Of a DNA stretch of 64,000 nt, positions 7,312-37,023 are shown one piece after another. Position numbers and translations under genes: made by a program. The notes under the pieces are model-generated. The model searched no databases. It was not told the origin of the DNA and saw nothing but the letters and a program-made list of their open reading frames with translations. The stretch comes from a virus (Duplodnaviria; Heunggongvirae; Uroviricota; Caudoviricetes), in the IMG/VR virus record IMGVR_UViG_3300014204_000115, positions 115,637 to 179,636 of that record; one strand, 5' to 3'. The first letter of the stretch is position 1. Every line of letters starts with the position of its first letter.

Positions 7312-7469
7312 AATTATCCCGCCTAGTTAAAAATCAAAAAACATAAAAATCTAGATTGATTCTTGTAAGTTTTACGTCAATCCCAGATAATTTTAGAAAC
7401 TATTTTAATATTAAAGAACAAATTAATAGTAAATCAACTTATTATAAAAATTATAGGAGAGAAATATCA

Positions 7470-12717: not shown

Positions 12718-12724
12718 TTTAAAA

Positions 12725-13849
12725 ATGAAAATTAAATTATGTGATTATGGTTGTGGAAAAGAAGCAAGATTTCTTTTAAAGTTTAAAAATTCAGAAAAAT
12801 GGTGCTGTTCAGAAAAATATTCAGCATGTAAATCAAATATTAAAACATGGAATAAAGGTTTGACAAAAGAAACAGATGAACGAGTTAAAAAATATTCAAT
12901 TAATAAAATTGGATTATCTTCATGGAACAAGGGTTTGACAAAAGAAACAGATGAACGAGTTAAAAAAATTAGTTTATCAAATATTGGAAAGAAAATTTCA
13001 TCTAATCATAGATTAAAAATTAGTAAATCTTTAAAGGGAAAAAGTAAAACAGAAGATCATATAAAAAAATTATCTGAATCATTAAAAGGAAAAATTGGAT
13101 GGAATAATGGTTTAACAAAAGAAACTAGTAATTCTTTAATGATAGTTAGTAAAAAACTAAAAGGAAGAATAATAAAACAAGAAACTAAAGAAAAATTAAG
13201 AAAAATAAATCTTGGTAAAAAGTTATCAGAAGAAACTATAATAAAAATTTCTAAAAAAAATAAAGGTAGAAAAAGAACACCTGAACAAATTAAAAATCAT
13301 AGAAATTCTATTAAAGGCAACAAAAATCATAAAATGAATCATTATATAGAAACTTATCCAGATTTTATAAAATTAGAATTATTAGAGGAAGATTCTGAAA
13401 CAAAAGATTTAATAGTAATATGTAGTATTTGTAATTTAAAATTTACTCAAAATAATAGAGAAAAAATTTCTTATAGAGCACAAATGATTATATTAAAAAA
13501 AATGAATCAAGGAATGTTTTATTGCTCAAAAGAATGCAAAGAAAAATTTATTAATAAAAATAAAAATGATTATGAAATATATTCTAGAAAAGTTTGGAAG
13601 AATACTTATCAATCAGTAAAAGAACAAGGTTCTAATATCAAAAATATTGAATTAAGAGGCAGAAAATATAAATATCAGTTAGATCATAAGTATTCTATAA
13701 TAGAGGGTTTTAAAAATAATATAGATCCAAAAATTATTGGTCATTGGAAAAATTTAGAAATAATTTCAGATATTAAAAATACAAGAAAATTAGGAAAATG
13801 TTCTATAACAATACAAGAATTAATACAAGAAATAAATAATATTATATAA
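12725..13849 (+). CDS. freestanding HNH homing endonuclease with tandem NUMOD3 DNA-binding repeats
   Basis: N-terminal CDYGCGKEARF..CCSEKYSAC zinc knuckle. There are at least 6 repeats of W/L-N-K-G-L-T-K-E-T / K-K-L-S-E-E-T-I-I-K-I-S-K-K-N-K-G (NUMOD3 consensus). C-terminal QLDHKYSIIEGF...HWKNLEII is an HNH core. The ATG at 12725 is preferred over the TTG at 12692 in the ORF track. Confidence 0.6.
   Translation: MKIKLCDYGCGKEARFLLKFKNSEKWCCSEKYSACKSNIKTWNKGLTKETDERVKKYSINKIGLSSWNKGLTKETDERVKKISLSNIGKKISSNHRLKISKSLKGKSKTEDHIKKLSESLKGKIGWNNGLTKETSNSLMIVSKKLKGRIIKQETKEKLRKINLGKKLSEETIIKISKKNKGRKRTPEQIKNHRNSIKGNKNHKMNHYIETYPDFIKLELLEEDSETKDLIVICSICNLKFTQNNREKISYRAQMIILKKMNQGMFYCSKECKEKFINKNKNDYEIYSRKVWKNTYQSVKEQGSNIKNIELRGRKYKYQLDHKYSIIEGFKNNIDPKIIGHWKNLEIISDIKNTRKLGKCSITIQELIQEINNII
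12846..12968 (+). repeat. near-perfect direct repeat (about 47 nt unit, period 75 nt) inside the HNH/NUMOD3 gene
   Basis: catggaa(t/c)aa(a/g)ggtttgacaaaagaaacagatgaacgagttaaaaaa occurs at 12846-12892 and 12921-12967. It encodes the duplicated WNKGLTKETDERVKK unit. Confidence 0.8.
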
Positions 13850-13939
13850 GAAACAAACTCAAAGTTCTGATTTCTTAAAGAGCTAGAACAAATATTAAAT
13901 ATGGATTGAAACATCGAATTTTGATAAGGAGATAAACTA

Positions 13940-14254
13940 ATGGTAGCTTCAGTGACAGAATTAGTAAAATCATTAATTGAAGGAATGGTAAAAGCGATTG
14001 TTGATAAACCAGGCGAAGTTAAAGTTCAGGTTTCATCTACAACTAAATCAATATTAGTTCAAATTGAATCTGCAAAAAGTGATATTGGAAAAATAATTGG
14101 GAGACATGGTAGAATAATTGATAGTATAAAAATTATTTCTACTGCTGTTAAAAATACTCAATTTCTTGGAGATAAGAAAGATATTTTTATTGAAATTATT
14201 GAAGATGAGGATACAGATTTTTATAAAAAGAAAGATATCAAAAACCAAAAATAA
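13940..14254 (+). CDS. KH-domain RNA-binding protein (KhpA-like)
   Basis: GxxG loop IGKIIGRHGRIIDSIK in a 104-aa protein, matching the small KhpA/YlqC-type KH fold. RBS AAGGAGATAAA. Confidence 0.55.
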   Translation: MVASVTELVKSLIEGMVKAIVDKPGEVKVQVSSTTKSILVQIESAKSDIGKIIGRHGRIIDSIKIISTAVKNTQFLGDKKDIFIEIIEDEDTDFYKKKDIKNQK

Positions 14255-20705: not shown

Positions 20706-20789
20706 TAAACCATTTTAATTATAGTACTAGAAACTATATATATTATATTTTAATAAACAATATAATATTTCTTAATAGAAAGGGTATAC

Positions 20790-22241
20790 ATGATTAGATT
20801 CAATTTGGCGGATAAAAAATTAGATATTTTTAAAGATGAGAAAGAAAAAATTTTAAGTATTAATTTAATTTCAAGTACAATTACAAATAAATTTTTTATT
20901 GTAACTACATTTATTGAAAATGTTTCTAAAACTTGTCCTGGTTTTGATGAATGGTTTTGTAATTTTTTAGATGAATATACATCTGTAGTTGAAAGATATG
21001 TTGTAATTCAAAAGAACATTCCAATTATTAAAAGTTATGTTGATCAATATTTAAATGTAGCAAATATTGATTATAATCAATTTGTGGATGAAAGTAAAGC
21101 TAAGAAAACAAGTATTTTATTTTCTGCAGAAGAAATAAAAAAAATAATTCAATTATCTTGTTATCTAAAGATTTACTCATTATTTTTTAATAGTGTTGAT
21201 TTAAAATTAGATCAAAGACTTCATAAAAGTGTCTATAATGAATTTGCGGCTGAAGTTTTAAATAGTGAAATAGTAAATAAAATATTTACTATAATTAAAA
21301 CTAAAACATTTAGGTATAATCTTACTGATAAGTATATGTGGGATTATATTAAAATGGTTCAATGTAAATCAATTGATGTTCATATTATTGAAATTTTTAA
21401 TTTTATTATGAACTCAATCCTTATTCTTTGTGAAGAAGATAAAAACCCAATAATTTATTTTGTTAGTGTAGTTCAAGAATCAATTAACTGGTTTTTAAGA
21501 TCTGTATATAAAGGACAAATTGTCTATGACGATACTGTTAGTACTGAAGATATTCATGGTGCTAATATTGATAACTTAAAAACTTACGCCTATAATGATA
21601 CCTTGGGTAGATTAAAAGGAATAGCTTTTGAGCAAATCTATGATAATCTAGAAAGATCTTCAATTTTATTATTTCCATCAAATCAAGAAACAGTTTCAGA
21701 TAAGTCAATCATTGAGTTTCAAAATAGAATTTCAGAAATAGAATTTATTTCCCCTCTTTGTGATTCATTAATTTATCCCGTTTTATCTGTAGTAACATCA
21801 ATACCATATATACATTTCAAAACTTTATCTCCAGATCATGCAATAGTATTATCTGTATATACTCAAAATTTATTGAGAAAAGTATTTAAAATTACAGAAT
21901 ATAAAAATCTATTTTCATTACTAAGTTATTATCCAAAAAAAGAAATAGCAGTAGCAACAACATATAAAGTAAAGGGAATGGAAGATTTGATTAAAGTATC
22001 TCAATCAGTAAATAGTTTCTTTGGATTTAAATCGAAATTATTATTTGCTAATATTTTGGGGTATTTTATTGGAAGAATCTCAAGAGTAAATTTTGTTAAT
22101 ATTTTTGATGGAAATGAATTAACAGGGGTTCCATTGAGTAAAATTGAATCTGAAATGATTCAATTCTATACAATGTTATTTGGTGGAAAGTTAGATGAAG
22201 AATTTAATAAAATGAAAAAATTAATTTATCAGGACTTTTAA
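20790..22241 (+). CDS. hypothetical protein (483 aa)
   Basis: Long ORF after a 85-nt AT-rich spacer; RBS AGAAAGGGTA. Confidence 0.5.
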   Translation: MIRFNLADKKLDIFKDEKEKILSINLISSTITNKFFIVTTFIENVSKTCPGFDEWFCNFLDEYTSVVERYVVIQKNIPIIKSYVDQYLNVANIDYNQFVDESKAKKTSILFSAEEIKKIIQLSCYLKIYSLFFNSVDLKLDQRLHKSVYNEFAAEVLNSEIVNKIFTIIKTKTFRYNLTDKYMWDYIKMVQCKSIDVHIIEIFNFIMNSILILCEEDKNPIIYFVSVVQESINWFLRSVYKGQIVYDDTVSTEDIHGANIDNLKTYAYNDTLGRLKGIAFEQIYDNLERSSILLFPSNQETVSDKSIIEFQNRISEIEFISPLCDSLIYPVLSVVTSIPYIHFKTLSPDHAIVLSVYTQNLLRKVFKITEYKNLFSLLSYYPKKEIAVATTYKVKGMEDLIKVSQSVNSFFGFKSKLLFANILGYFIGRISRVNFVNIFDGNELTGVPLSKIESEMIQFYTMLFGGKLDEEFNKMKKLIYQDF

Positions 22242-23166: not shown

Positions 23167-23399
23167 AAAAATATTTTTTATTTTTAATAATTATTCTTTT
23201 ATTTTGTTTAATAAGTTGTGATAATCATTATAGAAGATCCCTTTCATTCAATCTACCAAAAGAAGCAAAAATAATAAAAGAAGATCTATCTGTACCTGCA
23301 ATTTATTTTAAAATTGGAAAAAGATATTATATAAAAATTTTTAGTGGAAATGGATACTCAATTTTTGAAATAGATAAAGAGGTTATTAATGGACAATAA
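23163..23399 (+). CDS. small lipoprotein
   Basis: Signal peptide MKKYFLFLIIILLFCLISC with lipobox L-I-S-C. Confidence 0.5.
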   Translation: MKKYFLFLIIILLFCLISCDNHYRRSLSFNLPKEAKIIKEDLSVPAIYFKIGKRYYIKIFSGNGYSIFEIDKEVINGQ

Positions 23400-23829
23400 T
23401 ATAAAACAAGTAATTGTTATTAGAAAAGATCTTCATATGAGACAAGGAAAGTCATGTGCAAGTGCAGCTCATGCAAGTATGAAAGTTCTTCTTGATGTAT
23501 TAAAAGAAATACATTCTGTACCAAGAGGTGTCATTTTTGGTATGGAAATAACTCCAATAAATAATTTTCAAGAAAAAAATACAAGACAATTAGATTGTTT
23601 AGAAAAATGGATTAAAGGAACATTTACTAAAATTGTTGTTTATGTAAAAAGCGAAGAAGAACTTCTTGAAGTATTTAATAGAGCTAAAGATGAAGGGATT
23701 TTTTGCAGCCTGATTGAAGATGTTGGAAAAACTGAATTTAATGGTGTTCCAACCAAAACTTGTTGCGCAATAGGACCAGATGAATCAGAAATAATTGATA
23801 AAATAACTGGTAAATTACCTCTATTATAA
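23389..23829 (+). CDS. peptidyl-tRNA hydrolase, PTH2 family
   Basis: KQVIVIRKDLHMRQGKSCASAAHAS and C-terminal CCAIGPDESEIIDKITGKLPLL closely match the archaeal/eukaryotic Pth2 motifs (V.VR.DL.MGKGK.AAQ..HA; AIGP....IDKITG.LKLL). Confidence 0.8.
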   Translation: MDNNIKQVIVIRKDLHMRQGKSCASAAHASMKVLLDVLKEIHSVPRGVIFGMEITPINNFQEKNTRQLDCLEKWIKGTFTKIVVYVKSEEELLEVFNRAKDEGIFCSLIEDVGKTEFNGVPTKTCCAIGPDESEIIDKITGKLPLL

Positions 23830-23839
23830 GGATTTAAAA

Positions 23840-24094
23840 ATGAAAAAAATTATTCTTATAATTTTATTAGTATTAACTTTTTTATTAGTTTCATGTGATT
23901 TTTCACCTGTTGATCTTCCATATAAGTGTTATCAAACTGTTGAAAAAGAATTTCCTATAAATTCAAGAATAATGAATATACCAAGAGGTAATTATATTTT
24001 TATAGTAAAAACACCTGAAGGAAAAATTTGGTATGCAGAAACAATGGAAAGAAATTCTTCTAAAATAACTTATAAAGTTCAATTATTTGATTAA
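23840..24094 (+). CDS. small lipoprotein
   Basis: Signal peptide MKKIILIILLVLTFLLVSC with lipobox L-V-S-C. Confidence 0.5.
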   Translation: MKKIILIILLVLTFLLVSCDFSPVDLPYKCYQTVEKEFPINSRIMNIPRGNYIFIVKTPEGKIWYAETMERNSSKITYKVQLFD

Positions 24095-24098
24095 AAAA

Positions 24099-24140
24099 TG
24101 GCACTGAGATTTTCTTCTTAATCTCAGTGCCATTTTTTTG
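24099..24140 (+). terminator. Rho-independent terminator
   Basis: Perfect 12-bp stem tggcactgagat / atctcagtgcca with 9-nt loop, followed by TTTTTTT. Confidence 0.75.
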
Positions 24141-24217
24141 TTTATTATTTGTATAAAAGATAGAACAAAATATAAATTAGTAAGTTTATTTTTTGTTTAA
24201 AAGTGGAGGAAATTAAA

Positions 24218-24670
24218 ATGAAAAAGAAAGTATTTAAAGAAGACTTTCAAAGATTAGAAGAATTCATTCAAAAAATTAATAATATCATAACACCATTTTC
24301 CTTTCGTGATGAACTTAAAAGCGTAATGGATAAAGAAACTAGGATCAGAATGTCAGAGAAATACCCTAAATGTTATTTACCAGTTCGAATGGGTAATAAA
24401 GATATTCCATTTCTGCCTCTATGTAACAGAAATGGCGCAACTGATAAAAATATGATTTCTTTTTCTATGAAATTAGCTAATAGATTATTAGGAAGAGAAG
24501 ACGTTGATAGGGGAATGTTAGAAATAACTTTAAAGAAATTATCTAGAATGAATAATACATATTCAAAAGATATTCCAACTCCTCCTGGTCCAGCTTCACA
24601 AAAAGCTAATGTAACCAAGTCATTAATTTTACTAAAAAAGAATCTTGACAAAATAAAGAATGGTGAATAA
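24218..24670 (+). CDS. hypothetical protein immediately upstream of RNAP beta' (possible RNAP accessory factor)
   Basis: ATG at 24218 after GGAGGA (the ORF track starts at a GTG at 24203). Ends 1 nt before the beta' start. Confidence 0.45.
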   Translation: MKKKVFKEDFQRLEEFIQKINNIITPFSFRDELKSVMDKETRIRMSEKYPKCYLPVRMGNKDIPFLPLCNRNGATDKNMISFSMKLANRLLGREDVDRGMLEITLKKLSRMNNTYSKDIPTPPGPASQKANVTKSLILLKKNLDKIKNGE

Positions 24671-27600
24671 ATGTCCCTAAAATTTCTAGATTTAAATAAT
24701 TTTACAAGAAATTTAAAACCAGTAACAAGTACACAGACTCATACAAGAACAGATGAGTTTCATCCTCAAGGATTATTTTCCGAAATGATTTTTGGAGTAG
24801 AAGGTAGTTTAGATAGAAAGAAAACATTTTCATATATTGATTTAAATACATTTGTAATTCACCCTACTGCATATAGAATTCTTATCAGATTGGATAGAAA
24901 AATAGAAAAGATGTTTTCTACTGAAAAATCATTTAGATTGACAGAAAATGGTACATTAATAGAAGATGATAACGGAGTAACAGGAATTTTTGAATTTATT
25001 AAACTATTTCCAAAACTAATATTAAGAGGTGAATCTGAAGATAGAGATAAATTTATTAAAGTATTAAAAGATTCATATCAAGATCAAATATTATTTATAA
25101 ATAAAATTCCAATTATGCCTCCAGAACAAAGACCAATTTTTAAAGATAGCAGCGGAAGATACACACAAGATAAATTTAATGATTTTTACTTAACTATTTT
25201 AAGAAGATCAATACAACTTAAAACATTTGGGGCTAAAGGTACAATGTATGATCTATTAAATTGGGGATTACAAAGATCAGTAAATGATTTAGATGAATAC
25301 ACTAGAACAAAAATTGGTAAAAAATTTGGTTTAATTAGATCTCAGCTTCTAGGAAAAAGAACTGATTTCTCTGGAAGAGCTGTTATTACATCAGGTCCAG
25401 ATATTCCTGCAGATAAAATTGGAATACCTTTTAGATTAGCTATAACTTTATTTGAACCGTTTATAATTTATACACTTTTATATTCTGGAAAAATAAATAA
25501 AGATACTTTAGAAAAAGAAATAAAGAATTTTACAAAAACAGATTTATCCACAAATAGTATTGCAATTGTTTTAAAAAGTTTAAAATCTGGAGATGTTGTA
25601 CCTAAAAATTTATATGATATTTTCTTTAAGGCTGCAGTTTTGGCGTCTGAAAATAGAGTTGTTTTAGCAAAAAGAGATCCTGTTTTACATGCTGAATCAG
25701 TTCGAGCATTTTATCCTATCATAGTTCCTGGTAATACTATACAATTATCAGCTCTAGTTACAGGAGGATTTAACGCTGACTTTGATGGGGATACAATGGC
25801 AGTATTTCATCCTTTAACTATTGAATCACAAGATGAAGCAAAAAAAAGAATGATGATGGCTAGATCCTCTTCTTCATTTACAAGTATTACTTTTGAATTA
25901 AGTAAAGAAATGAGTGTTGGATTATATTTAATTACAAAAGATATTAAGGAATTTAAACCTCCTATTAGTGTTTCTAAAGAAGATTTAGAAAAAGCAATAG
26001 ATCCTTATACTCCAGTTATTTATAAAAAACAAACAACAACAATGGGAAAAGCAATTTTTAATAATTGTTTTCCTTCAGATTTTAGATTTATAAATGATTT
26101 GGTAACTAAAAAAATTGCTAATAAATTAATTTTTGAAGTTATTGATAAATATGGAGATGAAATTGGAAGACAAGTTGCATCTAATTTAAAAAATGTTGGT
26201 TTTAGATTCGCTAGTTTATTGGCACCTTCTTTAAATTTAAACGAAATTACAATTCCTCCTGAGATTTATGAATTAAAGAAAAATATGGATAAAGCTACAA
26301 CAGAAGAAGCAATTGAAATAATGGATAAAATGCGAAAAATAATGATTGAACATTTAAAAGATACAGGTTTATATAATTTAGTTGAATCAGGAAGTACTAA
26401 AGGATGGGATCAACCAATTCAAATTTTAGTTGCAAAAGGAATCATGGTAGATCCGACTGGAAAAATTCTTCCTCCTATTAAAGGTTCATTATCTGATGGT
26501 TTAACCACAACTGAATATTTTAATGCTGCTGGAGGAAGTAGAGCTGGAATCATTGATAGAGTTATCAATACTGCAGATACAGGATATACAGCTAGAAAAT
26601 TAGCTTATCTTTTAAACTCAGTAGAATTAGATTGGGTGTTAAAAGATTGTGGTACACAATTAACCTTAGATATAAAATTAGATCCAGATATTATTAGTAG
26701 ATTAAAAGGAAGATATATAGTAAAAAGAGGAAAATTAGAACTATTTGAACATTCTGGTTCAAAGTCTGGAGATTTAATTCATCTGAGAAGTCCAATTTTT
26801 TGTAAATCTTTAAAAATTTGTCATACTTGTTATGGAAAACTTTTAGAAATTCATAAAAGTCCTTATGTTGGAATTATTGCAGCATCAAATATTGGAGAAA
26901 GAAATACACAGCTTATTATGAGATCTTTCCATTCAACTGCAATTAAGATTATAACAAGAGATATATTAAAAGATATTTTTGATAATGATCCATTAGTTAA
27001 ATCCGATCAATTAAAAATAAAATTAAAACAGATGGAAAATAATTTGTATTGCACACAGGATTGTTCAATGACTATAGATTTAGATAGTTATGAATTAGGT
27101 GATGATATTACTATAAATGAAGAAGAAAATATAGTTGAAGCAAATGGTTTAATTTCTAGAATTGAATTTTCAGATTTATCATTTGATATAGTTCTTGATT
27201 ATCCAGTAATTATTAAATATGATAAAATAATTAAATCTAAAGAATTTATTAAAGTATCATTTAGAAAAGACGATGAAATTATTGAAGCTCCATTACAAAG
27301 ACAAGATTTAAAAGAAATTGTTTTATATGTCGAAAGATTAATTTCAGGTAAAGAAAAATTTAAAAGCATAGATCATTTATTTTTAAAATTTTACAAAATT
27401 TATAGCGACATTTCAAGTATGGATTTAGTTCATATGGAAGTATTAATTAGTCAGATTTTAAGAGATAAAAATAATCCAGTTTTCCCATCAAGAGTTGGAA
27501 AAGATCCAATGCATCCTGTATTAAGAAATATTAAAAAGAATGTTTTTAATAACGGAGGTTTGCTTCAAGGATTAGCTTTTGAAAATACATCAGCTGCTAT

Positions 27601-27700
27601 TAATGCAGGTTTAATAGCAACTACTGAATTAGAACCATCTATTTTAGAAAGATTATTAACAGGAACTTTAGTTGAGAGAAAAGATAAGGATAAGGATTAA
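24671..27700 (+). CDS. rpoC: DNA-directed RNA polymerase beta'-like subunit (1009 aa)
   Basis: Catalytic motif GGFNADFDGDTMAV. RAVITSGPDIPADKIGIPFRLAITLFEPF matches the beta' rudder/lid region. CHTCYGKL...GIIAASNIGERNTQLIMRSFH matches the beta' trigger-loop region. No N-terminal zinc-ribbon cysteines. Confidence 0.85.
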   Translation: MSLKFLDLNNFTRNLKPVTSTQTHTRTDEFHPQGLFSEMIFGVEGSLDRKKTFSYIDLNTFVIHPTAYRILIRLDRKIEKMFSTEKSFRLTENGTLIEDDNGVTGIFEFIKLFPKLILRGESEDRDKFIKVLKDSYQDQILFINKIPIMPPEQRPIFKDSSGRYTQDKFNDFYLTILRRSIQLKTFGAKGTMYDLLNWGLQRSVNDLDEYTRTKIGKKFGLIRSQLLGKRTDFSGRAVITSGPDIPADKIGIPFRLAITLFEPFIIYTLLYSGKINKDTLEKEIKNFTKTDLSTNSIAIVLKSLKSGDVVPKNLYDIFFKAAVLASENRVVLAKRDPVLHAESVRAFYPIIVPGNTIQLSALVTGGFNADFDGDTMAVFHPLTIESQDEAKKRMMMARSSSSFTSITFELSKEMSVGLYLITKDIKEFKPPISVSKEDLEKAIDPYTPVIYKKQTTTMGKAIFNNCFPSDFRFINDLVTKKIANKLIFEVIDKYGDEIGRQVASNLKNVGFRFASLLAPSLNLNEITIPPEIYELKKNMDKATTEEAIEIMDKMRKIMIEHLKDTGLYNLVESGSTKGWDQPIQILVAKGIMVDPTGKILPPIKGSLSDGLTTTEYFNAAGGSRAGIIDRVINTADTGYTARKLAYLLNSVELDWVLKDCGTQLTLDIKLDPDIISRLKGRYIVKRGKLELFEHSGSKSGDLIHLRSPIFCKSLKICHTCYGKLLEIHKSPYVGIIAASNIGERNTQLIMRSFHSTAIKIITRDILKDIFDNDPLVKSDQLKIKLKQMENNLYCTQDCSMTIDLDSYELGDDITINEEENIVEANGLISRIEFSDLSFDIVLDYPVIIKYDKIIKSKEFIKVSFRKDDEIIEAPLQRQDLKEIVLYVERLISGKEKFKSIDHLFLKFYKIYSDISSMDLVHMEVLISQILRDKNNPVFPSRVGKDPMHPVLRNIKKNVFNNGGLLQGLAFENTSAAINAGLIATTELEPSILERLLTGTLVERKDKDKD

Positions 27701-27702
27701 TT

Positions 27703-30700
27703 ATGATACAATTTAAATCACTAAGACAATATACTCATGTTGTTAATGGTATCAGATTTCCAAATAAACCCGGTCAAAATTTTGTTGTTACTTATTTTTC
27801 AGAAAATTCTAGTTTACTTGAAGATTATTCATTTTTAAATTTAAAATTAATAGATCTAAAAATTAATATAGTTCCATTTACAACAATTCCTAGAACAAGA
27901 TTAACACCTACTCTATTAAAATCATTTAAAAAACTAGGTTTAAATTCTTATCAATTAACTAATCAAGTACCAAGTGGAAGAAATGTAATATATGATTTAT
28001 CTCAATTTTTAAATGCAATTGATTATACATATAATCCATCAAATTATAGACAAAGATTAAATATGTTTATAAAAAATATTACTAATAGATCTTTTTCCGA
28101 ATTTAATAATTTTGAGAAAGTACTATTATATTCTATTAATTTAACAAAAGATAAGTTAAATAATTTTATTGACAGAAAATTTTTTCCAATAGTACAACAA
28201 TTAAAGGATGATTCATTTAGTTTTGATCATTTAATTTTATGTTTAATCACGCCATCAGGACCAAGATATAGATTATTAGTTAAAAATAGATCCTTTAAGT
28301 TTGAAAGAATAGTAACAATATTAAAAACAATTAAATTAGGTAATACTACAGAAGAAGTTAATGACATAGATACAGAAGAAGAAAATAATGCAGAAAAACT
28401 TGCAGATGAAGTAGTAAATAATATTCAAAATAATATTCTACCTAATAATAAAGATAAAGTAAAAGATGCAATTAAAAATTATCTTTCTAAAGATAATATT
28501 ACAAAAGAAAAAGTTATATCTAAAGAAGTATCTCCAAAAAGTATGAAAAAAATTGGAGTAGCATCTATTTTATATAAAGTAACTGGAGATTTAGATAAAT
28601 CTAAAAAAATTACAAATAATATTTCTGATAAGAATTTTAATAATGCTCTAAAAACTATAGATAAAAGATATTCTGATCAAATGTTACAAACTCAAAAACC
28701 AATTAATACATCAACTGATAATTTTGTTAAATCTTATGATACACCAAAAGCTGTAATTAAATCTCCATATCATTTATTTCAAAAAAGGTTGATAGACTTT
28801 GATATAAATCTCCAGAAAGATTTAGCTAATTCATTTAAAGTTCTTGAGACTAAAGAACTTCCTTTAAAAGTTGGTGAAATACAAATTGTAAATAGAAAAC
28901 AAAAAAATGGAGAAATTGAAAAATCTGATACTAATATAATTAAAACAGTATTGACAGATAAGGATGGTAATAATCATAACATTCAAATTGAAATTCCTAG
29001 AATTGATCCAAAGACTGGAACATTTAGAGTTAATGGTCAGAAAAAATGTTTAATCAATCAGATTGTATTATGTCCAATAACTTTTCCTAAAAAATTTGAA
29101 TCAAGATTTGAAAGTTCATATTCTATTTTTAGAATTAGAAGTAAAAGAACAAGAAATACAAAATATTTAGAAATTTTTATTGCTAACTCTTGGTTACCAT
29201 TATCTATATTATTATTTTATAGTTTTGGATTTGAAGAAACTCTTTCACAATATGGTATAAAATATAGAATAAGTTCAGATAAACCAAATAAAACTGACAC
29301 CTTTTATTCTAAAATTGATGGATCTAATTTTATTTATTTTGATGGTGTAAATAATGAATTAAAGGCAGAACTAATTAATTCATTTATAAATACAAAAGTT
29401 GACACATTAAAAATTAAAAAACCATTTGCTACTCAAGAATATTTCAATGATATAATTATTAGATTAACAGGAAGAGTAAATTCAACATTTTTAATTCTAT
29501 CAAATTTAGAAAATATTGTTGATCCTGTAGCAAAACAAGTTTTAATTAATATGCATCAACCATCTGTTTTAAAAGATATTATTTATTATATGTCTTTTAA
29601 AGTAATAACTGGATTTGTTCAAGATAGAAATGATATTTTAAACCAAAGAATTAGAGAATCAGAAGTATTAGTTCATTTAATACAAAAACAAATTTTAGCA
29701 GCTTATACGATTTATAAACAACAAATTTTAGCTGGTAATAAAAATGCAAAATTTGAAATTAATCAATCAAAATTATTAAGCGAATTTATTAGATCAGAAA
29801 TTGTTGCAAATATGGAGTATGCAAACCCAATAGAAGAAATGGCAGTTATGACAAGAATTTCACCTGTTGGAAAAAGTATCGGTGGTATTCCTGATAAAAG
29901 AGCAATTCAAAATGAAGCAAGAAATATACACCCATCTTATTTTGGAAATATTGATCCATTAGATACACCTGAAGGAGAAATGATTGGTATTTCACAACAA
30001 TTAGCTATCGGAGCTTCTATTAGTTCAGCAAGAGGTTTATTCTCAAAGAAACCATTTTTGGATAGTGAGAAATCTGGAATTTTATCAACATCATCCAATA
30101 TGATTCCATTTATAGAAAATAATGATGGTGCAAGAATTATTATGGCAACAAATCAAGCTAAACAGACGCTCCCATTAAAAAATCCAGAACCACCAGTTGT
30201 TAGATCTGGTTATGAATCATTATTAACAAATATATTATCTAATAACTTTATTAAAAAATCTCCATGCAATGGGAAAGTTTTAAAAATTACAGATGAGTCA
30301 ATTTTTATAATGTGTAGAGATAAAAGCATCAGAGAAATTTCTATAATTCCTGTTCATTTAAAATCAGGAATTGGAAAAGATACATTGAGTATTTTTAAAG
30401 TAATAGTAATACCAGGACAAATAGTTTTAGAAAATCAAATTATTGCAGAAGGAAGTTCTATTTCCAATGGAACAATTTCTCTAGGAAGAACTCTTTGTAC
30501 TGCAGTTATGCCATATAGAGGATATAATTTTGAAGATGGTATTGTAATCAACGAAAATTTAATAAATCAAGATAAACTAACATCTATTCATGGAATTATA
30601 GATGAAGTTTTAATTTCTGAAAATGATAGAGTTTTAGAAATTGCAAAAATTGGAACCTATCTTGAAAAAGGAAAACCTATTTTAAGAAAAACTATAGGTG

Positions 30701-31815
30701 AAATTGAACAACTTTTAGGATTTTCTGAAGAAGAAGGCGAAGAAGTAATGGGTCAACAATTTATTAAAAAAAGTCCAGGTGGAAGAATTGTTGACATTGA
30801 TGTATTTTCAAATTTAGATAATAATAAATTTCCAATTTTAAAAGATTTAATTGAAAGAACAAGAAGAAGATTTGGAACAACTCCGACTGAAAAGTTTTCT
30901 GTCAAAGGAAATTTAATTCAAGGTATTTTAATTAGATTTAAAATTGAACAAGAGTTAAGAATTAATCTGGGTGATAAATTAGCTAATAGATATGGAGCAA
31001 AAGGAATTATATCTTTAGTTGAACCAAACGAAATGATGCCCAGAACACCTTGGGGAGATTATGTTGATATCGTAGTAAATCCTGTTGGAATAATTGGAAG
31101 AAGTAATATTGGTCAGTTATATGAATTATATTGTGGTTTAATTTCTAGAGAGATTGGACAAAGGATAAGAAATTCTAAAAGTAAAAATCAAATTTTAACA
31201 TTAATGAAGAGCGTATATACCATTCTTGATGCATCAAAAAATAAAGAATTTTCAACAAGATTAATAGCAAATATAGCTGCTTTATCAGAAAGAGAATTTT
31301 TAATTTTAGTTAATCAAATAAAAACTACTGGATTTTCTCCAATTATAATTCCGCCATTTCAAGCTCCAAAACAAGATCAGATTAAAATGGCGTTAACTAT
31401 ACTAGGATTAAAACCGGGATATAATTTATTTCTTCCATATTATGGAACAAAAACTAAAAGTGAAGTTCCGGTTGGTTATATGTATTTTTCTGCATTGGAG
31501 CATAAAGCAGATGCTAAAGTATATGGAAGAAGTACAGGACCAGTAACAGGAAAAACTCTTCAACCTACATCAGGAAAAAGTAGAGAAGGTGGACAGAGAT
31601 TAGGAGAAGCTGATACATACTCATTAATTTCATATAATTGTCCAACTTTATTATCAGAATTGATGGGTCCATTAAGCGATGATTTATCTACAAAAAATGA
31701 AATCATTTCTGAAATTATACAAACAGGATCTGCAAAGTATAGAGATTCTAAAATATCTCCTGCTAAAGATCTGTTAAATTCTTATTTTGTCTCATTAATT
31801 TTGGAGAGAACATAA
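27703..31815 (+). CDS. rpoB: DNA-directed RNA polymerase beta-like subunit (1370 aa)
   Basis: YFGNIDPLDTPEGEMIGISQQLAIGAS, NRYGAKGIISLVEPNEMMPRT..VDIVVNPVGIIGRSNIGQLYE and GGQRLGEADTYSLISY correspond to conserved beta regions (..PIETPEG.NIGL.., .RHGNKGV.S.I.P.EDMP, GGQRFGEMEVWAL). Confidence 0.85.
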   Translation: MIQFKSLRQYTHVVNGIRFPNKPGQNFVVTYFSENSSLLEDYSFLNLKLIDLKINIVPFTTIPRTRLTPTLLKSFKKLGLNSYQLTNQVPSGRNVIYDLSQFLNAIDYTYNPSNYRQRLNMFIKNITNRSFSEFNNFEKVLLYSINLTKDKLNNFIDRKFFPIVQQLKDDSFSFDHLILCLITPSGPRYRLLVKNRSFKFERIVTILKTIKLGNTTEEVNDIDTEEENNAEKLADEVVNNIQNNILPNNKDKVKDAIKNYLSKDNITKEKVISKEVSPKSMKKIGVASILYKVTGDLDKSKKITNNISDKNFNNALKTIDKRYSDQMLQTQKPINTSTDNFVKSYDTPKAVIKSPYHLFQKRLIDFDINLQKDLANSFKVLETKELPLKVGEIQIVNRKQKNGEIEKSDTNIIKTVLTDKDGNNHNIQIEIPRIDPKTGTFRVNGQKKCLINQIVLCPITFPKKFESRFESSYSIFRIRSKRTRNTKYLEIFIANSWLPLSILLFYSFGFEETLSQYGIKYRISSDKPNKTDTFYSKIDGSNFIYFDGVNNELKAELINSFINTKVDTLKIKKPFATQEYFNDIIIRLTGRVNSTFLILSNLENIVDPVAKQVLINMHQPSVLKDIIYYMSFKVITGFVQDRNDILNQRIRESEVLVHLIQKQILAAYTIYKQQILAGNKNAKFEINQSKLLSEFIRSEIVANMEYANPIEEMAVMTRISPVGKSIGGIPDKRAIQNEARNIHPSYFGNIDPLDTPEGEMIGISQQLAIGASISSARGLFSKKPFLDSEKSGILSTSSNMIPFIENNDGARIIMATNQAKQTLPLKNPEPPVVRSGYESLLTNILSNNFIKKSPCNGKVLKITDESIFIMCRDKSIREISIIPVHLKSGIGKDTLSIFKVIVIPGQIVLENQIIAEGSSISNGTISLGRTLCTAVMPYRGYNFEDGIVINENLINQDKLTSIHGIIDEVLISENDRVLEIAKIGTYLEKGKPILRKTIGEIEQLLGFSEEEGEEVMGQQFIKKSPGGRIVDIDVFSNLDNNKFPILKDLIERTRRRFGTTPTEKFSVKGNLIQGILIRFKIEQELRINLGDKLANRYGAKGIISLVEPNEMMPRTPWGDYVDIVVNPVGIIGRSNIGQLYELYCGLISREIGQRIRNSKSKNQILTLMKSVYTILDASKNKEFSTRLIANIAALSEREFLILVNQIKTTGFSPIIIPPFQAPKQDQIKMALTILGLKPGYNLFLPYYGTKTKSEVPVGYMYFSALEHKADAKVYGRSTGPVTGKTLQPTSGKSREGGQRLGEADTYSLISYNCPTLLSELMGPLSDDLSTKNEIISEIIQTGSAKYRDSKISPAKDLLNSYFVSLILERT

Positions 31816-31816
31816 A

Positions 31817-32332
31817 ATGATATTAGATACTTATTTAGAAGAATTAAATAAACAAGATTTAAACAATGTAAAAATTCACCCAAAAAGAAAAACTGCTATG
31901 TCAGTTGCAGCATTAGCTAATCCTGCAGATGATGTATTATTTGGTGCAATGGGTGCAGGATCTGCATTAAAAGCAGCAAAAGATGCATCTAAATTAAAAA
32001 AATTTGGAGCTGCTGCTGGAGGTATTGCTATTGGTGTTGCTATGAGTGCAGCTTTAATAGCTGGTTATAGATTAATTAGATCAAAATTTGATAGGTGTAC
32101 AAAAGAGTGTGGAACATATACTGTTAATAAACCAAAAAGACAGTTATGCATGCTACAATGTAAAAAAGTTAATTTACAAAATGAAATAATTCTTTTACGT
32201 AAGGAAAAGAAACCTCAAAAAATTCCAAAGATTCAAAATAAATTAGCAATTGTTAATAGAAAGATTGTTTTAATGAATCAGTATTTAAAAAAGGGAACTA
32301 AAGATGAAAATACTAAAAGAATATCTAGATAG
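31817..32332 (+). CDS. hypothetical protein with Gly/Ala-rich (glycine-zipper-like) membrane segment
   Basis: GAMGAGSALKAAKDASKLKKFGAAAGGIAIGVAMSAALIAGY hydrophobic stretch. Confidence 0.5.
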   Translation: MILDTYLEELNKQDLNNVKIHPKRKTAMSVAALANPADDVLFGAMGAGSALKAAKDASKLKKFGAAAGGIAIGVAMSAALIAGYRLIRSKFDRCTKECGTYTVNKPKRQLCMLQCKKVNLQNEIILLRKEKKPQKIPKIQNKLAIVNRKIVLMNQYLKKGTKDENTKRISR

Positions 32333-32879
32333 AATAGATAAACCCGATAAATATTATGTAAAGGATTTAATTCAACAGAAGAAATTTAAAACAGCTCAAA
32401 AATATTTACTAAAAAAAAATATTAATACTCCAGTATTACAATGGTTATATAACTTAGAAAAAATAGATAATGAAGAAGAATTAATTAATACTAAAAAAAA
32501 GATATTAAAAAATAATAAAACAGATAAAATTGAAGTTCAAGAAATTTTGGAAGCTGAAAAAATCCTATCTGTAAAATTTCATCCTGATTATCTATGGATT
32601 TTAAAAAGATTTAGATATTTAGATGATGATAAAGGGAATGTAATATCTGGATTATCAAAATATGATCAATCTGAAAATATATTATTTTTAAATAAAAAAA
32701 TTATAGATCATAAAGAATTACCATCTGGTCATATTGTAATATCATATGATAATAAATTTCATGGATTATTAGTTTTAAATAATTTTACAGGTGAAGTTTT
32801 TTTATATAGTCATGATTTAAAAAATAAAAAGAAAATTTTTAATAGTTTAAAAGATTTTATAAAAATAATGTTTCATTAA
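32304..32879 (+). CDS. hypothetical protein (191 aa)
   Basis: ORF overlapping the upstream end by 29 nt. Confidence 0.45.
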   Translation: MKILKEYLDRIDKPDKYYVKDLIQQKKFKTAQKYLLKKNINTPVLQWLYNLEKIDNEEELINTKKKILKNNKTDKIEVQEILEAEKILSVKFHPDYLWILKRFRYLDDDKGNVISGLSKYDQSENILFLNKKIIDHKELPSGHIVISYDNKFHGLLVLNNFTGEVFLYSHDLKNKKKIFNSLKDFIKIMFH

Positions 32880-32904: not shown

Positions 32905-33492
32905 ATGAGTAGTTATGAAAAAATATTAATTGGTGAATCTATACCTTTAATGGAAGTCGATGATGAAGAATCTGATTTAAATTATGATCTGATTTCAAAT
33001 GCTGAGATTGATGCAGATTTTTACGATATATTAAAATACTTTGGAACAGATGAATTTAAACCACTATTTTTAAATCTATATAATGAGATTATATCATTAG
33101 ATTTTGAAAGACAAAGGGAGTTGTGTGAAAAATTAAACTCTAAAATTACACAAATTTTTGAATTTGAATTTTCTCCAACATTATCTTTTGACAATCAAGA
33201 TGATATTAGTAATTTTTTAAAATTTATTGAATTTTTAGAATATGATTATATAGATTTTTTATCAACATTAATTTCAGGTTTAGATTTTGAGTTACTAAAA
33301 AAAGATTTAGATAAATTTTTAACTTTATATTGGAATACAATAATTAAAAGAGTTAATGAGTTTAAAGAAAACGAGTTGATTTTAAAATTTCTTAGAACAA
33401 ATAATAAAGAGAAATTATATGAGTTTATACGATTAAGGTTGGAAAGAGATAAAATGTTAGTAATATTAAAATCATTAGAAAGGGAATTTTAA
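32905..33492 (+). CDS. hypothetical acidic protein (195 aa)
   Basis: RBS AAAGGGAACTAAAAATG. Confidence 0.5.
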   Translation: MSSYEKILIGESIPLMEVDDEESDLNYDLISNAEIDADFYDILKYFGTDEFKPLFLNLYNEIISLDFERQRELCEKLNSKITQIFEFEFSPTLSFDNQDDISNFLKFIEFLEYDYIDFLSTLISGLDFELLKKDLDKFLTLYWNTIIKRVNEFKENELILKFLRTNNKEKLYEFIRLRLERDKMLVILKSLEREF

Positions 33493-33493
33493 A

Positions 33494-33757
33494 ATGTCTG
33501 ATAGTATAATTATTAAAAAAGGATTAATGAAAATTTTAGAAACTGACAGAATTAATTTAATAACTGCAGAACAGAGTCATGACGGAATTGTTTTTACATT
33601 AAAAGGTGGAATTCAAATTTATTGTACTGATAATTATATGCCAAATCATACAAAAGATATAATTAAAAATACTTGTGATAGTTTCCCAACAGCAAATCTT
33701 GTTTTTGATTTAGCAAATTATAATAAACCTGTGGTGGTACAACCAACAAAAAAATAA
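33494..33757 (+). CDS. hypothetical protein (87 aa)
   Basis: ORF abutting the upstream stop. Confidence 0.45.
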   Translation: MSDSIIIKKGLMKILETDRINLITAEQSHDGIVFTLKGGIQIYCTDNYMPNHTKDIIKNTCDSFPTANLVFDLANYNKPVVVQPTKK

Positions 33758-33931
33758 TTTTTAAATTCATTTAAAAACTACTTAGCTACATATATATATT
33801 TATGAATACTTAAGGAATACTTATGTTAACTTATATTTTTAGGGAAAAGAATATTATTCTTTTCCTCCGTTGTAATTTAATTTTTTATGAGAAAGGAGGA
33901 TAATTTATTATATTATCAGTAGTGAGTTATT

Positions 33932-36971: not shown

Positions 36972-36992
36972 ATAGAAATTTAAAGTAATGAA

Positions 36993-37023
36993 GGGATTGT
37001 ATATATTAATATATACAATCCCC
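36993..37023 (+). promoter_or_regulatory. perfect 31-bp palindrome (15-bp arms) between SPFH and MoxR-like genes; terminator or operator
   Basis: gggattgtatatatt-a-aatatatacaatccc. Confidence 0.4.

What the first reader, a model, noticed from the sequence alone, without database searches (positions are those of the whole stretch)
24218..31815. Phage-encoded multisubunit RNA polymerase: unsplit beta' followed by beta (reverse of bacterial rpoB-rpoC order), beta' lacking the N-terminal zinc ribbon
24671-27700 carries the universal NADFDGD Mg-binding motif and the beta' trigger-loop neighbourhood (CHTCYGKL..GIIAASNIGERNTQLIMRSFH). 27703-31815 carries the beta motifs (PLDTPEGEMIG, NRYGAKGIIS..VNPVG..SNIGQ, GGQRLGE). 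Both are much shorter than bacterial subunits (1009 and 1370 aa), and the beta' homolog has no N-terminal CxxC zinc ribbon. The genes are contiguous with a 2-nt gap, in beta' then beta order, preceded by a 151-aa unknown protein that may be an accessory or sigma-like factor. Known phage multisubunit RNAPs (the phiKZ/AR9 type) have split beta and beta' genes. A pair of unsplit, reversed-order subunits inside an otherwise T4-like gene set is atypical. It implies host-RNAP-independent transcription, for which the promoter and specificity factor are unknown.
Basis: partly seen in the sequence, partly recalled or inferred. Interest (0 to 1): 0.65.

Follow-up and report, generated by a model that had tools for sequence, protein, structure and literature searches.

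The report
Published phage multisubunit RNA polymerase (mReC)
The window does carry intact phage genes for the two catalytic subunits of a bacterial-type RNA polymerase, but this lineage, and almost certainly this very contig, was published in 2020, so what is new here is a likely sigma-like partner protein, candidate promoters and a link to the split polymerases of jumbo phages.

Summary
Two intact, adjacent genes encode beta' (24671-27700, 1009 aa) and beta (27703-31815, 1370 aa), with all catalytic motifs, inside a T4-like phage context with uniform ~25% GC.

It is not new. These are the "mReC" phages of Weinheimer & Aylward 2020. Their tables list a 179,636-bp contig (Ga0172381_10000022) with adjacent genes of exactly these lengths. 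The window's beta' sits on a JGI contig of that length.

- Beta is not short. It is a trimmed core plus a lineage-specific ~313-aa N-terminal module, which is a separate gene in some relatives.
- The zinc-ribbon-less beta' N-terminus is shared with phiKZ/AR9 beta'N subunits.
- "Unsplit" is not fixed. A 79%-identical relative has beta' cut in two by an inserted Cys-rich ORF (HNH-like by eye).
- The 150-aa upstream protein is a conserved partner but has no sigma-like fold.

New leads:
- The conserved 483-aa protein (20790-22241) is homologous to the sigma2-like domain of AR9 gp226, the promoter-specificity subunit.
- A conserved element, AGAACAAA-W-TATAAAT, precedes the polymerase operon in the window and all 11 related loci examined.

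The function of these two leads is inferred, not shown.

The parts
20734..20744 (+). Conserved upstream element CTAYATATATW, about 45 nt before the 483-aa gene. Candidate promoter of a second class.
   Evidence: By eye, TAYATATAT or a near-variant lies at the same place upstream of the 483-aa gene in about 10 of 13 type A loci, including the divergent L011 and L012. A second copy is at 33786-33796. The count alone is not significant: 2 found against 0.72 expected. It overlaps the AR9 early (virion RNAP) promoter AAATATATATTAT over 11 bases.
20790..22241 (+). 483-aa protein. Candidate sigma-like promoter-specificity subunit, homologous to the sigma2-like domain of AR9 gp226.
   Evidence: hhalign against the gp226 family profile gives Prob 74.5% and E 2.7e-5; residues 159-241 align with gp226 183-264. 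Controls score at most 25.5 against 48.7 observed. A plain gp226-family HMM run against 6,123 ORFs ranks 17 distinct ORFs at the top, all from this family; the window ORF scores E 6e-5. The gene is conserved upstream of beta' in all type A loci and lies directly adjacent to it in L012 and L033.
24093..24138 (+). Intrinsic-terminator-like hairpin (19-bp stem followed by a T run) that closes the upstream transcription unit.
   Evidence: By eye, a similar hairpin plus T run precedes the motif in most relatives.
24159..24177 (+). Conserved promoter-like element GATAGAACAAAATATAAAT (core AGAACAAA-W-TATAAAT), 41 nt before the 150-aa gene.
   Evidence: Present at the same position and orientation in the window and all 11 type A loci examined, although their proteins are only 30-84% identical. 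Position-weight-matrix hits occur on the + strand only. The pattern AGAACAAAWWWWWAA occurs 3 times against 0.33 expected; 0 of 100 shuffles reach 3. At the score threshold that detects every type A site, it is missing from 18 of 20 type B loci; the other two show only weak variant hits (13.6 and 15.0).
24218..24670 (+). 150-aa conserved partner protein of unknown fold class. Its stop codon abuts the beta' start codon.
   Evidence: Always directly upstream of beta' in loci whose beta' is >=49% identical. It has 266 homologs of about 145-165 aa. E15, P50, C52, P67, C69, N70 and L108 are invariant across 51 sequences. AF2 pLDDT is 81.5. No structural relative was found, and there are no Pfam, PHROG or NCBIfam hits.
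24671..27700 (+). Beta' homolog, 1009 aa. NADFDGD lies at residues 368-374 (nt 25772-25792). Lid, clamp helices, rudder, bridge helix, second Zn site and trigger loop are retained. The N-terminal Zn ribbon is absent and the C-terminus is about 80 aa shorter.
   Evidence: The N-terminal 135 aa matches beta'N subunits of phiKZ-/AR9-like jumbo phages: 300 records, 34-38% identity, E down to 2e-15.
27703..28641 (+). Beta residues 1-313: a lineage-specific N-terminal module (alpha/beta domain 1-215 plus helical domain 225-328), fused here to beta.
28642..31815 (+). Beta linker plus trimmed catalytic core. Bacterial region B aligns at residues 424-462. Fork/D region, flap region, DPBB with K1092/K1100, GGQRLGE and the clamp-connector are present.
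31817..32879 (+). Two non-conserved inserted genes: a 171-aa protein (31817-32332) that looks membrane-spanning by eye, and a 191-aa SUKH/SMI1-KNR4 protein (32304-32879). They are not part of the conserved polymerase module.
   Evidence: Both are missing from every related locus, where beta is followed directly by the 195-aa gene.
32905..33757 (+). Conserved downstream genes of 195 aa (32905-33492) and 87 aa (33494-33757), function unknown. A second copy of the AGAACAAA element lies at 33391-33409, just upstream of the 87-aa gene.
   Evidence: Synteny is shown. The motif copy is conserved in L006, L087 and L093.
13882..13900 (+). Third copy of the AGAACAAA element, 40 nt upstream of a KH-domain gene (13940-14254).

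Best explanation
What it is. This is the catalytic core of a phage-encoded, bacterial-type multisubunit RNA polymerase. It belongs to the published mReC lineage, here called 'type A' (beta' ~1005 aa, beta ~1370 aa).

Core enzyme. Beta' and beta supply the two double-psi beta-barrels and all catalytic elements. No alpha or omega homolog is detectable in the window, as is the case for phiKZ/AR9 polymerases. I infer that the core assembles on its own, perhaps helped by the beta N-terminal module and the translationally coupled 150-aa protein.

Promoter recognition (inferred). Promoter specificity most likely comes from the 483-aa protein encoded upstream, which carries a sigma2-like domain homologous to AR9 gp226. 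The beta' clamp helices and lid that such a factor would contact are retained.

Candidate promoters (inferred). A conserved element, AGAACAAA-W-TATAAAT, drives the 150-aa/beta'/beta operon. A CTAYATATATW element precedes the sigma-like gene.

Consequence. The enzyme lets the phage transcribe at least part of its genome independently of the host polymerase.

Shown: the genes are intact, conserved, catalytically complete and of phage origin; they belong to mReC; the 483-aa protein is homologous to gp226; the two DNA elements are conserved.

Inferred: the subunit composition, which polymerase reads which element, and the timing.
For: Identity and integrity.

Phage origin rather than host:
- GC is uniform.
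- Synteny holds on more than 15 independent contigs.
- The best bacterial beta' among GTDB genomes is only 25-30% identical.
- NCBIfam scores are 284 and 318 bits against rpoC and rpoB cut-offs of 963 and 896.

mReC membership:
- The paper is read.
- Its tables list Ga0172381_10000022 at 179,636 bp, with beta gene _208 (length 1371) and beta' gene _207 (length 1010); each is one more than the ORF lengths here, presumably counting the stop.
- The protein 100% identical to the window's beta' lies on a JGI contig of 179,636 bp.
- Sibling contig Ga0172381_10002555 is 83% identical.

Large family under selection: 1928 hits, with more than 120 clusters at 51-83% identity; most are full-length at ~1005 aa, and some are 709-805-aa products covering 70-77% of the query.

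Sigma-like partner:
- hhalign gives E 2.7e-5, confined to gp226 residues 183-264.
- The AR9 structure paper defines residues 184-264 as the sigma2-like domain.
- Nulls reach at most 25.5 against 48.7 observed.
- The HMM check is and the genomic linkage.

Promoter-like elements.

Beta' elements that contact sigma are retained.
Against: - There is no experiment and no transcript data.
- The gp226 similarity covers only about 80 residues, and hhalign probability is 74.5%, not above 95%.
- The AGAACAAA element occurs only 3 times in 64 kb, so it cannot be the general promoter.
- That element precedes the polymerase's own genes. It therefore needs a pre-existing polymerase, either the host's or a virion-packaged one.
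- Only 64 kb of a genome of at least 180 kb was visible. A second polymerase set, or gp55- or sigma70-type factors, could lie elsewhere.
- Alpha and omega were sought only by HMM among ORFs of 100 aa or more, plus the 87-aa ORF. Other small ORFs were not scanned, and omega is about 90 aa.
Confidence: 0.85

Rival explanations
1. The genes are a host-derived rpoBC fragment joined to phage DNA by misassembly, or a recent capture of host genes.
For: Overall the core scores higher against bacterial beta' (215-223 bits) than against AR9 subunits (103 + 74 bits).
Against: - There is no GC break.
- The same flanking phage genes occur on more than 15 independent contigs from different samples.
- The best bacterial beta' in the GTDB scan is 25-30% identical.
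- Scores are far below the NCBIfam equivalog cut-offs.
- Gene order is the reverse of rpoB-rpoC.
- The N-terminus is of the jumbo-phage type, not the bacterial type.
Confidence: 0.01
2. The phage beta'/beta replace the host catalytic subunits in a hybrid enzyme that still uses host alpha2, omega and a host or sigma70-type factor. On this view the AGAACAAA-TATAAAT element is read through its -10-like TATAAAT half.
For: - Beta' keeps the clamp helices and lid, and beta keeps the flap region.
- TATAAAT is close to TATAAT.
- Intrinsic terminators of bacterial type flank the operon.
- No phage alpha or omega was found.
Against: - The beta' C-terminus is about 80 aa shorter than in bacteria; from general knowledge this is the region omega binds.
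- Beta carries a foreign N-terminal module.
- A gp226-like factor is genetically linked to the core.
- The related AR9 and phiKZ enzymes work without alpha or omega (PMC7598289).
- The sigma70-type promoter scan is at or below chance in this region.
Confidence: 0.12
3. The enzyme is a virion-packaged 'early' polymerase, injected with the DNA like the AR9/phiKZ vRNAP or the YerA41 particle-associated subunits, rather than a polymerase made after infection.
For: - Window beta' is closer to the AR9 virion RNAP subunits (g145 at 103 bits, g264 at 74 bits) than to nvRNAP gp270 (60 bits).
- YerA41's unsplit RNAP subunits are particle-associated.
- A promoter-like element in front of the polymerase's own operon would fit a pre-loaded enzyme.
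- The CTAYATATATW element resembles the AR9 vRNAP early promoter.
- The operon lies near baseplate-hub genes.
Against: - No virion proteomics is possible for an uncultured phage.
- The gp226-type factor belongs to the non-virion enzyme in AR9.
- In the top-80 IMG/VR list, the large type A contigs carry a single set, so one enzyme may have to serve all stages.
Confidence: 0.3
4. The 150-aa protein, not the 483-aa protein, is the promoter-specificity or sigma-like factor.
For: It is strictly conserved, directly upstream of beta' and translationally coupled to it.
Against: - The confident model has no sigma-like or helix-turn-helix fold.
- There is no profile similarity to the 'sigma' gene upstream of Carin-5 beta'.
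- It was not detected in the three divergent type A loci L011, L012 and L033, which keep beta', beta and the 483-aa gene.
Confidence: 0.12

Closest known systems
mReC: multimeric-RNAP-encoding Caudovirales (Weinheimer & Aylward 2020, Nat Commun 11:4506)
   Same: It is the same lineage and almost certainly the same contig: Ga0172381_10000022, 179,636 bp, with adjacent genes _207 and _208 of matching lengths. Shared traits are full-length beta and beta' detectable with cellular profiles, a T4-type capsid gene, and origin in metagenomes.
   Different: Nothing differs in kind. The sections and tables of the paper that I read treat the subunits as phylogenetic markers. They do not describe the beta'->beta order, the domain deletions and additions, accessory proteins, promoters, or any link to phiKZ/AR9 enzymes; a later review notes that the authors left the jumbo-phage RNAPs out of their tree. 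The paper does not separate the two architectures seen here: type A (beta' ~1005 aa, beta ~1370 aa, with the 483-aa and 150-aa genes) and type B (888 and 999 aa in L015).
AR9/PBS1 and phiKZ-type jumbo-phage multisubunit RNAPs (vRNAP and nvRNAP, with gp226/gp68)
   Same: - The beta' N-terminus lacks the Zn ribbon and is homologous at 34-38% identity.
- No alpha or omega is found.
- A gp226-like protein with the sigma2-like domain is present.
- Candidate promoter elements contain AACA and ATATATATTAT, as do the AR9 late and early promoters.
- Homing-endonuclease-type ORFs interrupt the polymerase genes in AR9, and a similar Cys-rich ORF (HNH-like by eye) does so in one relative here.
   Different: - Here beta' and beta are single polypeptides and adjacent; in AR9 and phiKZ they are 4-5 scattered genes.
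- Only one set is seen, against two.
- The genome backbone is T4-like, not chimallin/phiKZ-like.
- Beta has a unique N-terminal module.
- The catalytic core as a whole scores higher against bacteria than against AR9.
- AACA-to-start spacing would be off by one from the AR9 consensus.
Cultured phages with unsplit beta'/beta: Yersinia YerA41/vB_Yru_GN1, Cobetia Carin-5, Vibrio Va2, Rhizobium Kleczkowskaviridae, Fusobacterium JD-Fnp
   Same: These phages encode an unsplit beta'; an unsplit beta was also seen for YerA41/vB_Yru_GN1, Carin-5 and JD-Fnp4. Carin-5 has the small gene -> beta' -> beta order. YerA41 subunits are expressed early and are particle-associated.
   Different: Identity is only 24-28%. 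None has the 483-aa protein or the beta N-terminal module; the 150-aa protein was compared only with the Carin-5 upstream gene and does not match it. In the Rhizobium and Fusobacterium phages no beta gene lies within 8 kb of beta'.
Bacterial rpoB-rpoC core
   Same: The double-psi beta-barrel catalytic core, bridge helix, trigger loop, lid, rudder, clamp helices, second Zn site and flap region are all alignable.
   Different: - The gene order is reversed.
- There is no N-terminal Zn ribbon.
- The beta' C-terminus is shortened, and the region between bacterial beta positions 168 and 502 (the lobes, from general knowledge) is about 115 aa shorter.
- Beta carries an extra N-terminal module.
- Identity is at most 30%, and scores are about a third of the equivalog cut-offs.

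Membership tests
mReC (multimeric RNAP-encoding Caudovirales) | One tailed-phage contig encodes both beta and beta' homologs recognisable with cellular profiles | tested here: met
   Pfam and NCBIfam hits to both subunits. Phage genes lie on both sides.
mReC (multimeric RNAP-encoding Caudovirales) | The RNAP falls in the distinct deep-branching clade, separate from cellular homologs | tested here: inconclusive
   I built no tree. Indirect evidence: identity to any bacterial beta' found is at most 30%, and the contig with matching length and gene sizes is marked 'included' in the paper's RNAP dataset.
mReC (multimeric RNAP-encoding Caudovirales) | T4-type major capsid protein (PF07068/VOG11186) and a PF03237-type large terminase | not testable with these tools
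   Neither gene was found among the window ORFs scanned. The paper's MCP table lists gene _60 of Ga0172381_10000022 as VOG11186.
phiKZ/AR9-type jumbo-phage msRNAP | Beta and beta' are each split into two or more separately encoded polypeptides | tested here: not met
   Both are single ORFs of 1009 and 1370 aa. However, relatives have beta' split at the trigger loop (L006) or the beta N-terminal module as a separate gene.
phiKZ/AR9-type jumbo-phage msRNAP | The beta' N-terminus is of the phage type, without a Zn ribbon | tested here: met
   Residues 1-135 match beta'N of 300 jumbo-phage records, with E down to 2e-15.
phiKZ/AR9-type jumbo-phage msRNAP | A fifth, sigma-related specificity subunit of the gp226/gp68 type | tested here: met
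   Homology of the 483-aa protein to the gp226 sigma2-like domain. Its function as a subunit was not tested.
phiKZ/AR9-type jumbo-phage msRNAP | Two paralogous sets, virion and non-virion | tested here: inconclusive
   There is no second copy in the 64-kb window, and the rest of the genome is not visible. Among the top 80 IMG/VR loci, only one type A contig carried a second (type B) set (L013/L015).
Bacterial rpoBC | Equivalog-level similarity, rpoB-then-rpoC order, and an N-terminal Zn ribbon in beta' | tested here: not met
Sigma70 family (for the 150-aa protein) | Sigma2 or sigma4 helical domains, or a sigma Pfam signature | tested here: not met

The most novel reading that the evidence does not exclude
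mReC type A polymerases may be the unsplit sister, or an ancestral-like form, of the enigmatic split RNAPs of phiKZ/AR9 jumbo phages.

Shared features:
- the zinc-ribbon-less beta' N-terminus;
- a gp226/gp68-type sigma-related specificity subunit;
- possibly AR9-like promoter logic: an AACA-containing element before the polymerase operon, and an ATATATATTAT-like element before the sigma-like gene.

Close relatives show subunit genes being split now. One has a Cys-rich, HNH-like ORF inside the beta' trigger-loop region. Others have the beta N-terminal module as a separate gene. This would give a concrete route from two-gene polymerases to the 4-5-gene jumbo-phage polymerases.
Probability: 0.45. 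Interest if true: 0.65.

Novelty: already known. Interest (0 to 1): 0.4.

Why it matters
As written, the finding re-discovers a lineage published in 2020, so it adds little by itself.

What could matter is that nobody has described how these polymerases find promoters, and a 2020 review calls the origin of the split jumbo-phage polymerases 'a mystery'. This work supplies four things:
- a two-gene, alpha-less polymerase;
- a linked gp226-like factor;
- a defined 17-bp candidate promoter;
- natural split variants among close relatives.

Together they give a small set of proteins and DNA templates that can be tested in vitro. They also give a concrete hypothesis connecting mReC enzymes to the phiKZ/AR9 enzymes.

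Tried and rejected
- DNA-level search of the region against 50,697 GenBank phages found no match.
- No close protein relative exists among cultured phages, for type A or for type B.
- Profiles of the 150-aa and 483-aa families against PDB sequences gave nothing meaningful.
- The 150-aa profile against the 'sigma factor' gene upstream of Carin-5 beta' showed no relation. That Carin-5 gene itself has no sigma Pfam hit.
- The generic sigma70 promoter scan gave fewer hits than shuffled sequence and is uninformative at 25% GC.
- K-mer enrichment upstream of genes mostly recovered the Shine-Dalgarno sequence. A TTGAAATTATATAA lead was at chance level.
- Search for a second beta or beta' copy in the window found none.
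- The window's own JGI contig was not returned by the metagenome scan. Its identity therefore rests on contig length, gene lengths and adjacency.
- The paper's environment and full-annotation sheets were truncated in the held copy.

Full report
**1. Observation**

- a small ORF at 24218-24670 (150 aa from the ATG, which has a GGAGG eight bases upstream; 155 aa from the GTG at 24203);
- beta' at 24671-27700 (1009 aa);
- beta at 27703-31815 (1370 aa), after a 2-nt gap.

Pfam recognises Rpb1 domains 2 and 5 in beta' (2e-27, 1e-16) and Rpb2 domains 6 and 3 in beta (6e-44, 2e-9).

Catalytic residues are conserved. In a 20-member family alignment, A369-D374 of NADFDGD (368-374) are invariant and N368 is >=90% conserved. 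F753 and H754 of the trigger-loop MRSFH are invariant, with M750 and R751 >=90% conserved. The four cysteines of the second zinc site (C660, C711, C717, C720) are invariant. In beta, both barrel lysines (K1092, K1100) and GGQRxGE are invariant.

No cysteine is conserved in the first 125 residues of beta', and bacterial beta' aligns only from about residue 125. The missing N-terminal zinc ribbon is therefore real.

**2. What it is, and that it is published**

A homology search found 1928 relatives of beta'. More than 120 clusters are 51-83% identical; most are full-length at ~1005 aa, and some are 709-805-aa products covering 70-77% of the query. All come from metagenomes.

A literature search led to Weinheimer & Aylward 2020 (PMC7481178). 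They described 97 metagenomic contigs of 'multimeric RNAP-encoding Caudovirales' (mReC) with full-length beta and beta', a T4-type capsid gene and a deep-branching RNAP.

Their supplementary tables list contig 3300014204_____Ga0172381_10000022:
- length 179,636 bp;
- beta is gene _208 (length 1371) and beta' is gene _207 (length 1010); each is one more than the ORF lengths here, presumably because the stop is counted;
- marked 'included' in the RNAP dataset.

The database protein 100% identical to the window's beta' lies on a JGI contig of exactly 179,636 bp. A sibling contig from the same sample is 83% identical. I conclude that the window is part of that published contig. A 2020 review of jumbo-phage RNAPs already cites the group.

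The host-fragment rival is excluded. The best bacterial beta' in a scan of GTDB genomes is 25-30% identical. NCBIfam scores are 284 and 318 bits against cut-offs of 963 and 896.

**3. Anatomy of beta'**

Against solved bacterial enzymes, beta' retains:
- the lid, clamp helices and rudder (residues 125-276);
- the catalytic barrel (302-425);
- the funnel, bridge helix and second Zn site (455-672);
- the first trigger-loop helix (702-758);
- region H (904-933).

About 160-240 bacterial residues near the N-terminus are replaced by about 80, and the C-terminus is about 80 aa shorter.

The N-terminal 135 residues are not orphan sequence. They match the beta'N subunits of 300 phiKZ-like and AR9-like jumbo-phage records at 34-38% identity, with E down to 2e-15. 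Against AR9 itself, the window beta' is closer to the virion enzyme (g145 at 103 bits, g264 at 74 bits) than to nvRNAP gp270 (60 bits).

**4. Anatomy of beta: the 'short beta' claim is wrong**

Bacterial beta residues 131-168 align with window residues 424-462, and by eye core similarity starts near residue 350. Residues 1-~313 are an added module followed by a low-complexity linker.

In some relatives this module is a separate 311-324-aa ORF (L087-L089).

A profile search of 1.84 billion representative proteins found it in only 114 clusters. Nearly all matches start at the N-terminus of ~1330-1740-aa betas, or lie in short standalone or partial proteins.

**5. Synteny, and 'unsplit' as a variable state**

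In all loci with beta' at least 49% identical, the block is: 483-aa gene ... 150-aa gene -> beta' -> beta -> 195-aa -> 87-aa -> 200-aa -> 311-aa. The 171-aa and SUKH genes after beta in the window are absent from every relative, so they are an insertion.

A second mReC architecture, type B, also runs beta' -> beta, and the two genes overlap by 4 nt in L015 (beta' 888 aa, beta 999 aa). Type B lacks the beta N-terminal module, the 150-aa gene and the 483-aa gene. One 248-kb contig carries both types (L013 and L015).

In a 79%-identical relative (L006), beta' is encoded as 779-aa and 230-aa ORFs. They are separated by a 333-aa cysteine-rich ORF that looks HNH-like by eye (Pfam finds nothing), inserted just after the first trigger-loop helix. 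Several other relatives show an interruption at the same place.

'Unsplit' is therefore a state of this genome, not a fixed trait of the lineage.

**6. The 150-aa protein**

It is a genuine, strictly linked partner. It has 266 homologs of about 145-165 aa, with seven invariant residues including C52 and C69. Its stop codon abuts the beta' start codon.

Its confident model (pLDDT 81.5) has no sigma-like fold and no structural relative. It was not detected in the three most divergent type A loci. It may be an assembly or accessory subunit, but that is inference.

**7. A better specificity-factor candidate**

The 483-aa protein (20790-22241) is conserved upstream in all type A loci. In the divergent L012 and L033 it lies directly next to beta'.

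Evidence for homology to AR9 gp226:
- A profile of this family aligns with a profile of AR9 gp226 and six homologs from cultured jumbo phages: hhalign Prob 74.5%, E 2.7e-5, with residues 159-241 matching gp226 183-264.
- The AR9 holoenzyme structure paper defines gp226 residues 184-264 as its sigma2-like domain. The 2.1bis helix (205-214) reads the template-strand 3'-UUGU-5' promoter element (PMC9209446).
- Invariant K164 and D180 align with invariant K188 and D204. W184 (conserved in 10 of 12) aligns with invariant W208.

Controls:
- unrelated alignments score 11-25;
- 60 column-shuffles reach at most 22.6;
- the reversed profile scores 19.8;
- the observed score is 48.7.

As an independent check, a plain HMM of the gp226 family was searched against 6,123 ORFs from the window and all loci. 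The top-ranked hits are 17 distinct ORFs, all from this family (window ORF E 6e-5). The next hit is at E 0.75.

I regard the homology as likely. The role as promoter-specificity subunit is inferred. No paper in the library links gp226 homologs to mReC.

**8. Candidate promoters**

A 19-bp-stem terminator hairpin (24093-24138) is followed by GATAGAACAAAATATAAAT (24159-24177). The core AGAACAAA-W-TATAAAT lies at the same place and orientation upstream of the 150-aa gene in the window and all 11 type A loci examined, although the proteins there are only 30-84% identical.
- Matrix hits are + strand only.
- The pattern occurs 3 times in the window against 0.33 expected; 0 of 100 shuffles reach 3.
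- A second conserved copy precedes the 87-aa gene (33391). A third precedes a KH-domain gene (13882).
- At the threshold that detects every type A site, it is missing from 18 of 20 type B loci; the other two show only weak variant hits.

The element contains AACA, the non-template form of the AR9 nvRNAP -11..-8 element (5'-AACA-N6-U-A/G). The spacing to a T-A start would be one base shorter.

A second element, CTAYATATATW, precedes the 483-aa gene in about 10 of 13 type A loci by eye and recurs at 33786. It overlaps the very conserved AR9 early (virion RNAP) promoter AAATATATATTAT over 11 bases. Its count in the window is not significant on its own.

Which polymerase reads either element is unknown. 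TATAAAT could equally serve a host sigma70 enzyme.

**9. Mechanism: best estimate**

- Shown: an intact, conserved, catalytically complete phage beta'/beta pair of the mReC lineage.
- Inferred, at about 0.5: the core assembles without alpha or omega. None was detectable among the ORFs scanned. It binds the 483-aa gp226-like factor through the retained clamp helices and lid, and initiates at AACA-type elements.
- Open: whether it is packaged in the virion, as in YerA41 and the AR9 vRNAP, or made after infection.

**10. Verdict**

As a discovery it is already known.

The residual value lies in the corrected anatomy, the gp226-like factor, the candidate promoters, and the evidence tying mReC type A to the phiKZ/AR9 polymerases.

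Noticed in passing
L006 8337-9338 (relative, 79% identical beta'); similar gaps in L009, L010, L011, L012, L033, L036, L092, L093: In L006, a 333-aa cysteine-rich ORF that looks HNH-like by eye (no significant Pfam hit) sits inside the beta' gene just after the first trigger-loop helix. It splits beta' into 779-aa and 230-aa ORFs. P0091 (1389 aa) instead carries an intein domain. The polymerase genes of this lineage look like active targets of mobile elements.
   Followed up: partly
L013 and L015, both on IMGVR_UViG_3300040801_004532 (248,136 bp): One contig carries both a type A set (beta' 52% identical) and a type B set (31% identical) about 38 kb apart. This may be a two-polymerase phage analogous to the vRNAP/nvRNAP systems. 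Other large type A contigs in the top-80 list showed only one set.
   Followed up: partly
window 7356-10718: The ribonucleotide reductase large subunit is 1120 aa. HNH-endonuclease matches lie at residues ~422-477, between the two RNR halves, which suggests an intein or an inserted homing endonuclease. A separate HNH ORF follows the UvsX-like gene (12692-13849).
   Followed up: no
window 46773-47171 and 54800-55834: A 6-pyruvoyl-tetrahydropterin synthase (QueD-like, 7e-30) and a radical-SAM protein are present. From general knowledge, these hint at a 7-deazaguanine-type DNA modification pathway. Modified DNA would be a reason to carry a dedicated polymerase.
   Followed up: no
window 60385-62100: Adjacent genes show a weak JAB-domain match (E 4e-4, below the Pfam cut-off) and a ThiF/E1-like match (7e-18). 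This could be a ubiquitin-like conjugation or deconjugation pair in a phage, perhaps aimed at host defence.
   Followed up: no
window 31817-32879: A 171-aa protein that looks membrane-spanning by eye and a SUKH (SMI1/KNR4) immunity-type protein are inserted immediately after beta. They occur only in this genome and are absent from all relatives.
   Followed up: partly
window 23389-23829, 13940-14254, 62125-62601, 56841-57155: Small RNA- or translation-related genes: a PTH2 peptidyl-tRNA hydrolase, a KhpA/B-type KH-domain protein (preceded by the AGAACAAA element), a protein with a Rho N-terminal domain, and a WYL_2 Sm-like protein.
   Followed up: no
window 36992-37023: A 14-bp-stem palindrome (GGGATTGTATATATTAATATATACAATCCCC) lies in the gap before the ATPase gene at 37060. 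It was called as a minus-strand terminator, but it is nearly symmetric and could be a bidirectional terminator or a protein-binding site.
   Followed up: no
P0243 (150-aa family member) on a 255,557-bp NCBI contig: A relative of the 150-aa protein is labelled in NCBI as coming from a 'Candidatus Thorarchaeota archaeon' MAG. I think a phage contig mis-binned into an archaeal MAG is more likely than an archaeal host.
   Followed up: no
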